From contig MGMD01000010.1 in the NCBI GenBank assembly GCA_001796285.1, positions 65,415 through 129,414 of the forward strand: DNA of 64,000 nucleotides, in the 5' to 3' direction. The translations under genes and the position numbers were made by a program. This stretch comes from Chlamydiae bacterium RIFCSPLOWO2_12_FULL_45_20. GTDB taxonomy: Bacteria; Chlamydiota; Chlamydiia; Chlamydiales; SM23-39. The notes below the pieces were generated by a model, which saw only the letters and a list, made by a program, of their open reading frames with translations, ran no database searches and had not been told where the DNA came from. This document shows positions 6,670 to 9,124 of the stretch, in pieces. Position 1 is the first letter of the stretch, and every line of letters begins with the position of its first letter.

Positions 6670-6708
6670 AATTCTTTTCCCTCTGAGTGTGTGTTGGAGG
6701 GATTACAT

Positions 6709-6780
6709 GAGACTTTAGCTCAGTGGTAGAGCATCTCACTTTTAATGAGAGGGTCGATGGTTCGAACCCATCAAGTCTCA
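6709..6780 (+). tRNA. tRNA-Lys (TTT)
   Basis: GAGACTT/AAGTCTC acceptor stem, TCTCA-CTTTTAA-TGAGA anticodon arm, GATGGTTCGAACCCATC T-arm. Confidence 0.94.
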
Positions 6781-6883
6781 AACTTTTATCCCGTTCAATT
6801 CATTGCATTTAGGCAATAATCAGCTAGACTCAAATAAAAATTGAGTCTATGATTTTGTTCAAATGGTGCAGCGAAAAACAAAC

Positions 6884-6924
6884 TTAACCAGCACTTCATC
6901 CCATCGCTCAAACCCTAAATCAAA
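6884..6924 (+). repeat. island-associated ~40-bp repeat, copy 1 (direct copy ~9041-9081, inverted degenerate copy ~8508-8531)
   Basis: CCAGCACTTCATCCCATCGCTCAA(A/T)CCCTAA(A/C)TCAAA. Confidence 0.75.
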
Positions 6925-6934
6925 AGGCTAGAGC

Positions 6935-7318
6935 ATGGCATCGATCTACAAAAGAAAATCCAAAGACGGCAAGTCCACAGTTTGGCGCGCCATCATTCGT
7001 ATCAAAGGCTACCCCACCACCTGTAACACTTTCGAACGCAAGCAAGAGGCAGATGACTGGGTCAAAGACACCGAGCGCCGCATCAAGCTTGGCCAGTACA
7101 ACTTTGAAACAAACAACACATCTCACACTTACGCTGCCCTGATCGGTCGACTCTCTCTCGATGGGGCTCTTCAACATCACCGTTCCCTTAAAAGGTTGGT
7201 GGTTGTCGAATTAAAGCTGGATAGCCAGATGGAGATTTATCTTCGATGGCTTTTAAGGAAGTTTGTTCCCAATTTTTTAAAGCGATCATTGCTTGATGCC
7301 CTGCCCAGATATTGTTAA
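6935..7318 (+). pseudogene. truncated tyrosine integrase (N-terminal arm) joined to a DUF1016/YhcG-like fragment
   Basis: MASIYKRKSKDGK..WRAIIRIKGYP..TFERKQEADDW is integrase-like; no catalytic domain; HHRSLKRLVVVELKL..QMEIYLRWL resembles the YhcG C-terminus. Confidence 0.7.
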
Positions 7319-7844
7319 GAGAAGAAAATATTCGACCCGTCCCATCAGCAATTATTCCATAAGCAATGTATCCCCCGAATGCAGGGCTTACTGTAGCACA
7401 GAATATTCCAGCGATTGTTTCGCCTACTCCGAACATAAATTCACGTATTTGGGCAGCTTGGTCTGGCGTTTTCCCCCACTCAGATTTGAAGGGTGGATAG
7501 CTGTTCAAAGCTTGTAAAGTTGGCTTATACTCTCCAATGATACGCTCATTGCCAGTGGGTTTTTTCGAAAATAGATTAAGGGAAGAGCCATACATGCGAT
7601 ACCATATGAACAACTGCTCAACCGCAATCAGCTTTAGGATGCTTTCTCCAGCTTTTTTGGCCTCATCATATGCGGATCCAAATTGCGCACTGGCTAGCGT
7701 CGACTGACCTAATGATTGCAAGACAAATGCATAATGCATATTTGAAGCATAATTGTTTTTGATATTGGGAGCTATCTCTGAACATTTTGCGTATAAAAAA
7801 GAACCATTAATTAATACGCAAAAAATCACAAAATATTTATACAT
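7188..7844 (-). CDS. hypothetical exported protein with a Gly-rich hydrophobic C-terminal hairpin
   Basis: 218-aa ORF, signal-peptide-like N-terminus, start overlaps the stop of the upstream small ORF. Confidence 0.65.
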   Translation of the reverse strand: MYKYFVIFCVLINGSFLYAKCSEIAPNIKNNYASNMHYAFVLQSLGQSTLASAQFGSAYDEAKKAGESILKLIAVEQLFIWYRMYGSSLNLFSKKPTGNERIIGEYKPTLQALNSYPPFKSEWGKTPDQAAQIREFMFGVGETIAGIFCATVSPAFGGYIAYGIIADGTGRIFSSLNNIWAGHQAMIALKNWEQTSLKAIEDKSPSGYPALIRQPPTF

Positions 7845-8064
7845 TAAATCCTCCGACAGCCATCATGAAAGTAAGATAATCTGCTGATAAGAGAAAAAAT
7901 GCTGTCACGCCACTTCCGATTGCTTTAGATAGCTCAGCAGATTTCCCGGTTTCTTTCCAAAGTTTCCAAAACTGTATGCTCTTAGGGATTAATAGGCCGA
8001 TCGATACTGTATACAGCCCAATGAAAATAATACTCTTGACTGCGCTAAACATTGCATAGGTCAT
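7837..8064 (-). CDS. small hypothetical two-TM membrane protein (75 aa)
   Basis: ATG 8064 with SD AAGGAG; two hydrophobic segments. Confidence 0.6.
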   Translation of the reverse strand: MTYAMFSAVKSIIFIGLYTVSIGLLIPKSIQFWKLWKETGKSAELSKAIGSGVTAFFLLSADYLTFMMAVGGFNV

Positions 8065-8180
8065 AAGGACTCCTTTTTCAAGCAGGCAAGTGTAAAAGAA
8101 AGTATTTTTTATGGGAAGGAGGGTTGTCGTGCTTATGTGGTGCAAAAATGGTGCAACGACTTCCCTACTGCACCATTTAT

Positions 8181-8453
8181 CCAATCGATGAAAGAAAACC
8201 AAGTCCTTTAGGGCTTGGATGAATTTCGCTTTTTCTCTATACTCGTCTTCATCGCGACAACCAAGCGATCTACGGTCGGGCAGACCGAAAGTAACGCTTC
8301 TCAGATATGAGATTGTAAGACCGAAAGAGCATGGGTCGGAACTAACCGTAAAGCTCTCTAAGGCTGGCTCAGGGGAAGAACCCACTGAAGCCTCAATCCA
8401 CCTTGGTTTGAGGCCTTAGGAATCCTCTCCATTTAGGGAGGGGAGGAAGTCAA
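8181..8453 (+). mobile_element. non-autonomous IS200/IS605-family miniature element with no tnpA or tnpB
   Basis: left end TTAT|...AAAA plus hairpin CCAAGTCC-TTTA-GGGCTTGG; right end GAAT plus hairpin CCTCTCC-ATTTAG-GGAGGGG plus AGGAAG-TCAA, matching the IS608 end architecture. Confidence 0.8.
8215..8243 (+). promoter_or_regulatory. putative sigma70-type promoter inside the IS605 left end
   Basis: TTGGAT-17 nt-TATACT. Confidence 0.45.
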
Positions 8454-8473
8454 AACCAGCAAAAACCCGTTGC
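8271..8473 (+). ncRNA. putative TnpB omegaRNA/reRNA scaffold plus flank-derived guide
   Basis: hairpins CGGTC-GGGCA-GACCG, GCCTCAATCCA-CCT-TGGTTTGAGGC and the RE hairpin ending in TCAA; begins with tnpB-tail-like codons (TVGQTESNAS). Confidence 0.6.
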
Positions 8474-8593
8474 ATCCATCAAACAACTCATTTACAATCA
8501 TGCTCATAGCGATTGGATGGTGCTGGATAAAAGGGATCTCACCCTCACTTTTAATGAGAGGGTCGATGGTTCGCTTCATACCTTTGTTATGAC

Positions 8594-8851
8594 TTGCTAC
8601 CCGACCTTTTGAAAGTCGAGGTGCCCATTTACATGATTCACGGCGAAGAGGACATCATGGTGCCTATCAAGAGTGCCGACCTCATTCAAGAGGCTTTTGA
8701 TCAAGCTGGAAAGATGAATCTTCAATATGCTCGCTATGATGATCTCGGGCATGCCTTAACAGGGCGCGAAGATGTCTACGCGCCGATGCTCGATTGGATA
8801 TGCGATAAAAGCTTCTCATCTTCTGCGTCTGTTGACCCCCAGGTTGAATAA
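8594..8851 (+). pseudogene. C-terminal fragment of an alpha/beta hydrolase
   Basis: PIYMIHGEEDIMVP and YDDLGH (catalytic Asp/His region); no GxSxG N-terminal part; starts right after the att copy. Confidence 0.65.
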
Positions 8852-9124
8852 AATCCCAATACGCAAATTTACGCACTTGACCAAGTAAAACTGGCTCAAA
8901 TAGCCCCAAAAAGCAGCTACTTGCCATTTCGCTAGCTCGTTAATCCTGTCGCTGCTGTGTCTTCGAGTTCTTTTGGTGCAATGGCGGTGCAACGAAGTTC
9001 GTATTGCCGTCAAAATCCAGTGCTGCAACGAAGAAAACATTTACCCAGCACTTCATCCCATCGCTCAATCCCTAACTCAAATAGTGGAGAACAAACTAAG
9101 CCGAATGTGTATTAACAAATTTTC

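What the first reader, a model, noticed from the sequence alone, without database searches (positions are those of the whole stretch)
8176..8473. Gene-less 273-bp IS200/IS605 miniature that may be a self-contained omegaRNA (guide RNA) cassette
Seen: the left end reads TTTAT|CCAATCGATGAAAG-AAAA then the hairpin CCAAGTCC-TTTA-GGGCTTGG. A TTGGAT-17-TATACT promoter-like motif lies at 8215-8243. About 180 nt of stacked hairpins follow, starting with tnpB-tail-like codons (TVGQTESNAS). The right end reads GAAT-hairpin-AGGAAG-TCAA (8420-8453). No tnpA or tnpB coding sequence remains. Established: IS608 ends use guide/cleavage tetramers AAAG/TTAC (left) and GAAT/TCAA (right), so AAAA/TTAT here is the covarying version. 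TnpB omegaRNA overlaps the tnpB 3' end and right end and takes its guide from the flanking DNA. Inference: the deletion kept both TnpA-recognised ends, a promoter and the RNA scaffold. The element could therefore move using TnpA in trans and program a TnpB (or a nuclease-dead derivative) in trans, with guide AACCAGCAAAAACCCGTTGC and TAM TTTAT. That would make it a minimal RNA-only parasite of an OMEGA system.
Basis: partly seen in the sequence, partly recalled or inferred. Interest (0 to 1): 0.75.

Follow-up and report, generated by a model that had tools for sequence, protein, structure and literature searches.

The report
Gene-less IS605 mini-transposon with guide-RNA scaffold
This 273-base stretch is a real, protein-less miniature of an IS200/IS605 jumping gene that still carries the guide-RNA part of its lost TnpB nuclease gene, an already described kind of element that in this genome looks like an orphan without a working nuclease partner.

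Summary
Observation confirmed. Window 8181-8453 is a discrete 273-bp insertion 3' of TTTAT. It has IS608-type left and right ends, and homologous sites in four same-genus genomes lack it.

Its interior is homologous to the 3' end of tnpB plus the right end, where TnpB omegaRNAs are encoded:
- A covariance model built only from tnpB-linked tails hits it at 44.5 bits, E 2.6e-9.
- It keeps a hairpin and a long-range helix that covary across lineages.
- It nearly reaches Rfam HPnc0580, the ncRNA of the Helicobacter pylori mini-IS605.

The element is single-copy here. The only near-full tnpB in the assembly belongs to another subfamily and is interrupted. tnpA is seen only as fragments at contig ends. 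No RNA data exist.

The concept is not new. Gene-less IS200/IS605 elements (PATEs) that encode omegaRNAs, and standalone omegaRNAs that work in trans, are already in print.

Verdict: a new member of a known kind, most likely a latent orphan in this genome. Similar gene-less omegaRNA elements recur in related genomes.

The parts
8176..8180 (+). TTTAT target site, the presumed TAM, directly 5' of the left end
   Evidence: Read. TTTAT also precedes the related left ends in L045-L048, L062, L066 and L068, the resident IS ends on C16 and C28 and L011. TTTAT is the TAM of ISGst2 TnpB2 (passage).
8181..8453 (+). The whole 273-bp gene-less IS200/IS605 miniature (PATE)
   Evidence: Homologous flanks in L072-L075 lack it. 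It is single-copy in G000.
8195..8198 (+). Left guide tetranucleotide AAAA, just 5' of the hairpin foot
   Evidence: Read. It changes together with the target across relatives. The IS608 rule comes from PMC3201880 passages.
8199..8218 (+). Left-end subterminal hairpin: 8-bp stem with one T.G, loop TTTA
   Evidence: The T.G position is kept in L012, L013 and L045, and L045 has a compensatory change in the neighbouring pair.
8215..8243 (+). Promoter-like motif: TTGGAT, 17 nt, TATACT
   Evidence: Read. The same layout occurs in L014, L045, L046/L068, L047 and L048. The promoter scan did not list it.
8251..8269 (+). 5' hairpin of the presumed RNA: 5-bp stem, 9-nt loop
   Evidence: The same module follows the promoter in L011, L047, L048 and L066. 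L048 carries a compensatory G-C to A-T change relative to L047.
8273..8287 (+). Conserved scaffold hairpin 1, which overlaps the tnpB-tail codons TVGQT
   Evidence: The fifth stem pair appears as C-G, G-C, A-T and T-A in relatives, and the amino acid changes between Q and H with it.
8297..8301 (+). Box 1 (CTTCT), the 5' half of a long-range helix
   Evidence: It pairs 5 of 5 with 8374-8378. The helix is 5 of 5 paired in 23 of 30 tails, with at least 8 pair types. It is also in the RNAalifold consensus of tnpB-linked tails.
8374..8378 (+). Box 2 (GGAAG, followed by AACC), the 3' half of the long-range helix; lies in codons like the TnpB C-terminus
   Evidence: The tail reads like the end of the L010 TnpB.
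8420..8453 (+). Right end: GAAT guide, hairpin 8424-8443, then 10 nt ending in the TCAA cleavage site
   Evidence: It is 86-92% identical to the right ends of tnpB-carrying elements L010, L049, L050, L052, L053, L055, L059 and L063. The 10-nt spacing is that of IS608.
8454..8473 (+). Flanking DNA that would serve as the guide of a read-through omegaRNA
   Evidence: Inferred from the established position of TnpB guides just outside the right end. The 16-mer has no other exact copy in the genome, and near matches are no more frequent than for the reversed control.

Best explanation
Window 8181-8453 is a non-autonomous, protein-less derivative of an IS605/IS608-type transposon, that is, a PATE or mini-IS.

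What it keeps:
- both single-strand hairpin ends that a Y1 transposase (TnpA) recognises;
- a left-end promoter-like motif;
- directly behind that motif, the last roughly 200 nt of the parent element, which in full-length relatives is the tnpB 3' end plus right end and encodes the TnpB guide RNA (omegaRNA).

How such an element works is inferred from the family. TnpA made elsewhere excises and pastes the top strand 3' of TTTAT. An RNA started at about 8250 would run through the scaffold into the flank. It would lead a compatible TnpB to cut the vacated site, that is, the TTTAT followed directly by the bases from 8454 on. The element would then be copied back by repair.

In this genome it is most likely a latent orphan. 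It is single-copy and lies in the degraded end of a tRNA-Lys-associated island. The assembly holds no intact or matching TnpB.

Shown: its identity, its boundaries, the homology of the scaffold and the conserved helices. Inferred: transcription, mobilisation and guiding.
For: Boundaries:
- Four same-genus homologues of the flanks lack the 273 bp.

Ends:
- The cleavage-site-to-hairpin distances are 18-19 nt on the left and 10 nt on the right, as in IS608.
- GAAT and TCAA are identical to the IS608 right end.
- The same ends occur in 28 of 400 genomes of the order, G000 included, many next to 330-430-aa TnpB genes.

Scaffold:
- Model R1, built from 11 tnpB-linked tails without the window, scores 44.5 bits, E 2.6e-9, at 8324-8453.
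- Rfam HPnc0580 scores 35.5 bits against a cut-off of 37 at 8259-8357. That RNA lies in the H. pylori mini-IS605.
- A 30-38-nt core at 8262-8300 is 87-100% identical to cyanobacterial tnpB tails.
- Hairpin 1 and the box1/box2 helix covary across lineages.

Selection argument:
- Minimal miniatures of about 110 bp without any scaffold exist (L022, L014), so the scaffold is not needed for transposition.
- Yet at least five gene-less lineages keep it from hairpin 1 onward.

Orphan status:
- Single copy.
- R1 finds only two weaker loci in the genome, both of the resident subfamily.
- The resident tnpB on C26 is split by a palindromic insert of about 120-165 bp.
Against: - There is no expression evidence of any kind.
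- The -35 part of the promoter-like motif is weak, and the scan did not list the motif.
- The window's right hairpin departs from the family consensus. By my reading, the closing pair is lost and the usual T.G position is a C-G pair. This may impair TnpA recognition.
- R1 aligned its first hairpin to a second, duplicated module at 8333-8347 rather than to hairpin 1. Most of the score comes from the right end.
- The box1/box2 count picks the best of 1-5 candidates per sequence, and the sequences are related, so it overstates independence.
- The assembly is 90.6% complete and breaks inside IS copies. A matching TnpB or an intact TnpA could therefore be unassembled.
Confidence: 0.72

Rival explanations
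1. One reading: the cassette is active now. It is transcribed, moved by a resident TnpA, and its RNA programs a resident TnpB (or a nuclease-dead relative) in trans.
For: - The resident IS uses the same TTTAT target and a left end of the same layout.
- tnpA fragments lie at contig ends, so intact copies may be unassembled.
- The scaffold helices are intact.
- Standalone omegaRNAs have been shown to work in trans in other systems (passage).
Against: - The element is single-copy.
- No tnpB with this right end exists in the assembly.
- The only near-full tnpB is 35% identical to the matching type and is interrupted.
- The resident right end has a different hairpin and an 8-nt rather than a 10-nt spacer.
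- G011, of the same genus and in 2 contigs, carries a similar miniature but no TnpB or TnpA match. Such elements therefore persist as relics.
Confidence: 0.15
2. A small regulatory RNA gene that no longer depends on TnpB. The miniature would have been kept for an RNA with a host function, as has been asked for the H. pylori mini-IS RNA.
For: - It nearly reaches the Rfam family of an expressed H. pylori sRNA located in mini-IS605.
- Miniatures with scaffolds occur in genomes with no TnpB match (G011, G020, G026).
- L047 and L048 sit at the same site in two species, with a compensatory change.
Against: - No target, partner or expression data exist.
- The element is absent from the homologous sites of four same-genus genomes, so it is not a conserved host gene.
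- The flanks of L047/L048 look about as conserved as the element.
- The source paper says the function of the H. pylori mini-IS elements is unknown.
Confidence: 0.06
3. Not a transposon at all: a structured part of the island's attachment region, or a chance set of hairpins.
For: It lies 90 nt from a repeated tRNA-Lys fragment. The end hairpins are not more stable than shuffles.
Against: - Homologous island ends in four genomes lack exactly these 273 bp.
- Both ends match ends of tnpB-carrying elements in many genomes.
- The covariance model hit has E 2.6e-9.
Confidence: 0.02

Closest known systems
PATEs (palindrome-associated transposable elements) of IS200/IS605 that encode omegaRNAs, as noted for Geobacillus stearothermophilus ISGst elements (Meers et al. 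preprint PMC10055086; passages read)
   Same: No protein gene. Both IS200/IS605 ends. The omegaRNA region is retained. TnpA and TnpB are needed in trans. TTTAT is the target/TAM, as for ISGst2.
   Different: The host lineage differs; relatives are labelled Rhabdochlamydiaceae. Here the element is single-copy, and no compatible TnpB was found in the same genome. A left-end promoter-like motif sits directly in front of the scaffold.
Helicobacter pylori mini-IS605 / mini-IS606 and the ncRNA HPnc0580 (PMC2993954 and PMC6531487, passages read; Rfam RF02269)
   Same: Gene-less miniatures made of both ends of the roughly 2-kb elements. The mini-IS605 carries an annotated ncRNA. IS606 inserts next to TTAT. 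The window scores 35.5 bits against the RNA family over its full length.
   Different: The score is 1.5 bits under Rfam's cut-off. The window's scaffold is longer, with what looks like an internal duplicated module. The H. pylori elements are multi-copy.
Standalone omegaRNAs of OMEGA systems (Altae-Tran et al. 2021, as summarised in the introduction of PMC10691335; passage read)
   Same: Mobilised omegaRNA loci without an effector or a transposase.
   Different: [quoted passage not shown] Here no compatible effector is seen and nothing has been tested.
IS608 of H. pylori (PMC3201880, passages read)
   Same: Subterminal imperfect hairpins. Guide tetranucleotides 5' of each hairpin foot. The left cleavage site lies about 19 nt 5' of the foot, and the right site TCAA lies 10 nt 3' of it. 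GAAT is the right guide.
   Different: The target is TTTAT/TTAT with an AAAA guide, instead of TTAC with AAAG. No tnpA or tnpB is left.

Membership tests
IS200/IS605 family (IS608-type ends) | Subterminal imperfect palindromes at both ends, no terminal inverted repeats | tested here: met
   The hairpins are at 8199-8218 and 8424-8443. They are conserved in relatives. Their folding energy alone is not better than shuffles.
IS200/IS605 family (IS608-type ends) | Insertion 3' of a specific tetra/pentanucleotide, without target duplication | tested here: met
   TTTAT lies at 8176-8180. The homologous sites L072-L075 have the same length across the junction once the 273 bp are taken out, so there is no duplicated flank.
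IS200/IS605 family (IS608-type ends) | Cleavage sites at set distances from the hairpin feet, with guide tetranucleotides 5' of each foot | tested here: met
   The distances are 18-19 nt on the left and 10 nt on the right, against 19 and 10 in IS608. The target and the left guide change together across relatives: 7 of 8 TTCAT-type ends have G at guide position -4, and all TTTAT ends read have A. The pairing register is not resolved.
IS200/IS605 family (IS608-type ends) | Y1 (HUH) transposase TnpA that acts on these ends | tested here: inconclusive
   The element holds none. The genome has three C-terminal TnpA fragments, two of them at contig ends beside a TTTAT-type left end. Whether an intact copy exists, and whether it would be compatible, is unknown.
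PATE / mini-IS (non-autonomous IS200/IS605 derivative) | Both ends present and no protein-coding gene between them | tested here: met
   The element is 273 bp. The tnpB-tail codons are split over two frames. The 66-aa ORF has no Pfam match.
PATE / mini-IS (non-autonomous IS200/IS605 derivative) | Several copies with different flanks in one genome | tested here: not met
   G000 has one copy. Close relatives are multi-copy elsewhere: 3 copies in G423 and 2 in G139.
TnpB omegaRNA | Encoded across the tnpB 3' end and the right end, with the guide taken from the flank | tested here: met
   The region is homologous to tnpB-linked tails. The R1 hit is 44.5 bits, E 2.6e-9.
TnpB omegaRNA | Conserved secondary structure supported by covariation | tested here: met
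   The fifth pair of hairpin 1 appears in four Watson-Crick forms. The box1/box2 helix is 5 of 5 paired in 23 of 30 tails, with at least 8 pair types, and the window pairs 5 of 5. The RNAalifold consensus of the tnpB-linked tails has 8 of 23 pairs with double changes. Caveats: the sequences are related, and box 2 was chosen as the best of several candidates.
TnpB omegaRNA | The RNA is made | not testable with these tools
   No RNA run holds the locus.
TnpB omegaRNA | A compatible TnpB in the same cell binds it and cuts TAM-plus-guide targets | tested here: not met
   No tnpB with this right end is in the assembly. The resident tnpB is from another subfamily and is interrupted. The assembly is 90.6% complete. 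Binding and cutting cannot be tested here.
Rfam RF02269 (HPnc0580) | Score at or above the gathering cut-off of 37 bits | tested here: not met
   The score is 35.5 bits, E 0.0018, over the full model length. This counts as related, not as a member by Rfam's rule.

The most novel reading that the evidence does not exclude
In this chlamydial family, gene-less miniatures pair a left-end promoter with the omegaRNA scaffold, starting at the same scaffold boundary in at least five separate lineages. They persist, and in one case look recently multiplied, in genomes where no TnpB or TnpA could be found:
- G061 has at least 4 near-identical copies.
- G011 is assembled in 2 contigs and has no match to either protein.
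- G026 also has no match to either protein.

This would mean the guide-RNA cassettes either have a use that does not need a resident TnpB, or are a standing guide reservoir served by nucleases that arrive on other mobile DNA. The window's copy would be one of these.
Probability: 0.1. Interest if true: 0.6.

Novelty: new member of a known kind. Interest (0 to 1): 0.25.

Why it matters
The element is a clean, well-bounded example of an omegaRNA-bearing PATE. By the labels of its closest relatives, the host is a chlamydia-like bacterium.

It shows that this transposon family has left many such miniatures across the order. It also gives exact ends, a predicted TAM (TTTAT) and a scaffold that could be tested with the TnpB proteins of related genomes.

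It does not open a new question. PATEs that carry omegaRNAs, and trans-acting standalone omegaRNAs, are already published.

Tried and rejected
- Other copies in the genome: BLAST at word size 7 found none.
- Expression: no RNA holder is listed among the public runs.
- Empty-site form in natural populations: Logan contigs of four DNA runs cover parts of the element. One contig bridges the left junction with the element present, and none joins across the element. Coverage is low, so this says nothing about excision.
- Guide targets elsewhere: the 16-mer after the right end has no second exact copy. Matches with up to 3 mismatches number 14 forward and 11 reverse, against 15 and 14 for the reversed control.
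- Orthologous empty site next to the left-flank genes in G001: the region diverges there, so it is uninformative.
- Genome-collection scan with a 16-nt scaffold word: mostly chance hits, as expected for that length. Only the chlamydial and cyanobacterial loci extended by BLAST.
- First two scripts for locating hairpin 1 and box 1: the regular expressions failed or mis-anchored and were replaced.
- Small-protein reading of the 66-aa ORF: rejected (and the frame break in L067).
- Integrase reading of ORF 6935-7318: no Pfam match at E<=0.1. I do not claim it.
- A parent tnpB with the exact window-type scaffold: not found. In chlamydial loci that scaffold type appeared only in gene-less copies.
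- Supplementary figures of the cited papers (the PATE panels of Meers et al., Fig. S11 of PMC2993954) could not be seen. They may show closer precedents.

Full report
**What is in the sequence.**

- TTTAT lies at 8176-8180.
- The left end starts at 8181. It has four A's at 8195-8198 and a hairpin at 8199-8218 (8-bp stem with one T.G, loop TTTA).
- TTGGAT (8215-8220), 17 nt, then TATACT (8238-8243).
- About 200 nt of predicted stems follow. RNA folding of 8245-8475 gives -78.6 kcal/mol and z = -3.41, and 0 of 200 shuffles fold as well.
- The right end has GAAT (8420-8423), a hairpin (8424-8443), AGGAAG, and TCAA ending at 8453.
- No transposase or nuclease frame is left. The single 66-aa ORF has no Pfam match.

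Two cautions apply. The promoter scan did not list the TTGGAT/TATACT pair. As single-stranded DNA, the two end hairpins fold no better than shuffled sequence.

**It is a discrete insertion.**

A search of the genus with window 7200-9100 found that the DNA right of the element, from window 8453/8454 on, is 75-88% conserved in four other genomes. In L072-L075 this conserved sequence is joined directly to a homologue of the window's left flank, without the 273 bp and without any length change at the junction. This fixes the boundaries at 8181 and 8453. It also shows insertion 3' of TTTAT without a target duplication.

The site lies in the decayed end of a tRNA-Lys-associated island. tRNA-Lys is at 6708-6781, and an exact 30-nt repeat of its interior lies at 8544-8573.

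**The ends are those of an IS605/IS608-type family.**

- The left-end and right-end sequences match loci in 28 of 400 genomes sampled from the order at E<=1e-4, G000 included, and in 9 of 61 closer relatives at E<=1e-3.
- Right ends that are 86-92% identical close tnpB genes of about 330-430 aa in L010, L049, L050, L052, L055, L059 and L063.
- The geometry is that of IS608. There the left cleavage site lies 19 nt 5' of the hairpin foot, TCAA lies 10 nt 3' of the right foot, and four-base guides sit 5' of each foot (PMC3201880, passages). The window has 18-19 nt and 10 nt, with GAAT and TCAA unchanged.
- Across related left ends, the target and the guide change together. All TTTAT-flanked ends that I read have A at the fourth base before the hairpin. 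Seven of 8 ends flanked by TTCAT (one by ATCAT) have G there; L023 is the exception. I could not settle the pairing register.

**The interior is the omegaRNA region of a lost tnpB.**

- Codons 8272-8301 read TVGQTESNAS, and 8363-8395 read like the C-terminus of the L010 TnpB, but in another frame.
- A 30-38-nt core around 8262-8300 is 87-100% identical to the tails of cyanobacterial tnpB genes (for example L160 and L179) and to gene-less cyanobacterial copies.
- I aligned 11 tnpB-linked tails from the order, leaving the window out. The consensus fold has a first hairpin, a long-range helix and the right-end hairpin, and 8 of 23 pairs show double changes.
- The covariance model built from that alignment hits window 8324-8453 at 44.5 bits, E 2.6e-9. 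The next hit in the window is the left-end hairpin, at E 0.02.
- The model placed its first hairpin on a second, apparently duplicated module (8333-8347), and most of the score comes from the right end.
- Independent of the model, the fifth pair of hairpin 1 (8273-8287) occurs as C-G, G-C, A-T and T-A in relatives, and the encoded residue changes with it.
- The five bases before the conserved GGAG-like anchor pair 5 of 5 with the five bases before an AAYC motif in 23 of 30 tails, with at least eight pair types. The window pairs CTTCT (8297-8301) with GGAAG (8374-8378). Its relative L067 has CTTGT and pairs 5 of 5 with a different partner's pick; by eye, a compensated partner also sits at the position matching the window's box 2.
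- That count picks the best of 1-5 candidates per sequence, and the sequences are related, so it is supportive rather than a formal test.
- Rfam's best match is HPnc0580, at 35.5 bits against a cut-off of 37, over the full model length. A passage in PMC6531487 places that RNA in the mini-IS605 of H. pylori, a non-autonomous element.

**Relatives: many gene-less copies, with and without scaffolds.**

- The closest scaffolds, 88-91% identical over 124-189 nt, are three gene-less copies in one genome labelled Rhabdochlamydiaceae (L095, L098, L138). They have a different left end, a TTGAT target and a TGTATAAT box in front of the scaffold.
- That genome also has 6-7 TnpB matches, one of which (L211) has a matching right end.
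- Other gene-less copies that keep the scaffold:
  - L011, from the same genus, next to a tRNA.
  - L045.
  - L047 and L048, at the same site in two species, with a compensatory stem change.
  - L066.
  - L067 and L044.
  - L056, next to a parent tnpB.
  - L221 and three near-identical copies in G061.
  - L230 and L231.
  These were read.
- Miniatures of about 110 bp without any scaffold also exist (L022 and its many copies in G030, and L014). The scaffold is therefore not required for transposition. Its repeated retention from hairpin 1 onward suggests that it pays for itself. This is my inference, in line with the homing model of Meers et al.
- The TTGGAT-17-TAnnnT layout is kept in the left ends of L014, L045, L046/L068, L047 and L048.

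**This genome lacks a partner.**

- The element is single-copy.
- Pfam searches find one near-full tnpB, on C26 and running off the contig end. It is 35% identical to the L010 type and is split in its zinc-finger region by a palindromic insert.
- There are also short tnpB remnants on C27, C18 and C6.
- The right end of that resident element has another hairpin and an 8-nt spacer.
- TnpA appears only as three C-terminal fragments. Two are at contig ends, beside a left end that also follows TTTAT.
- Model R1 finds only the C26 tail (26 bits) and the C6 remnant (20.7 bits) besides the window.
- The assembly is 90.6% complete and breaks in these repeats, so absence is not proven.
- No RNA run holds the locus. 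Contigs of four DNA runs show the element present and no empty form.
- In a family sample, R1 hits 18 of 61 genomes and the TnpB zinc-ribbon domain 34 of 61. Five genomes with R1 hits have no TnpB match (G011, G020, G026, G035, G430).
- G011, in 2 contigs, also has no TnpA match. Orphan miniatures are therefore common here.

**Comparison with what is known.**

- The Meers et al. preprint reports PATE-like elements in G. stearothermophilus. It states that PATEs often encode omegaRNAs that must be acted on in trans by TnpB from other elements, and it gives TTTAT as the TAM of ISGst2 TnpB2 (passages).
- The introduction of PMC10691335 says that standalone, mobilised omegaRNAs without an effector or transposase have been found and shown to work in trans (passage).
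- PMC2993954 describes mini-IS605 and mini-IS606 in H. pylori, with TTAT as the IS606 target (passage).
- Earlier notes of this scan reached the same filing for similar elements in other genomes.
- The window element therefore works like these and is a member of the PATE class. Two features were not met here: several copies per genome, and a compatible TnpB in the same genome.

**Verdict.**

The element is real, well bounded and structurally intact. It is a new member of a known kind. In this genome it is most likely a latent orphan guide-RNA miniature. The claim of a self-contained active cassette is unproven, and the concept is not new.

Noticed in passing
window 6708-6781 and 8544-8573; also L072-L075: An exact 30-nt repeat of the interior of tRNA-Lys lies 1.8 kb downstream of the intact gene. 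A conserved terminal sequence precedes it, and in four same-genus genomes that sequence runs into a full tRNA 3' part. This looks like the decayed remnant of a tRNA-Lys-integrated island, and the miniature sits in its end.
   Followed up: partly
window 8975-9081 versus 8140-8175 and 6864-6924: A second copy of the GGTGCAA-rich motif that flanks the miniature on the left lies at about 8975-9035. In addition, 9021-9081 is 85% identical to 6864-6924. This suggests tandem island remnants.
   Followed up: no
L002 about 1300-1500 (G000:C26, minus strand): The only near-full tnpB of the genome is interrupted in its zinc-finger region by a near-perfect palindrome of about 120-165 bp. This may be another kind of miniature inverted-repeat element.
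   Followed up: no
G030: L018, L022-L042: One related genome holds 25 or more copies of the left-end hairpin. Those read (L022, L025, L026) are miniatures of about 110 bp with both ends and one central hairpin, but no omegaRNA scaffold.
   Followed up: partly
G061: L220, L221, L223, L224: At least four near-identical copies of an omegaRNA-bearing miniature, most of them at contig ends. The genome is 99% complete. Only a 35-aa TnpB fragment and no TnpA were found in it.
   Followed up: partly
window 8270-8301 versus 8333-8359: The long scaffold seems to hold two similar hairpin-plus-box modules. An internal duplication would explain why it is about 55 nt longer than the 128-129-nt cyanobacterial scaffolds.
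   Followed up: no
window 8594-8851: An 85-aa ORF matches only the C-terminal quarter of dienelactone-hydrolase-type alpha/beta hydrolases (Pfam DLH, E 4.8e-6). It is a truncated gene remnant just beyond the repeated tRNA fragment.
   Followed up: no
L084, L090, L096, L118, L136, L146, L147, L167 (cyanobacterial records): Gene-less copies of a 129-nt scaffold plus right end, with no tnpB frame upstream in those checked. The same kind of miniature therefore occurs in cyanobacteria, with a core nearly identical to the window's.
   Followed up: partly
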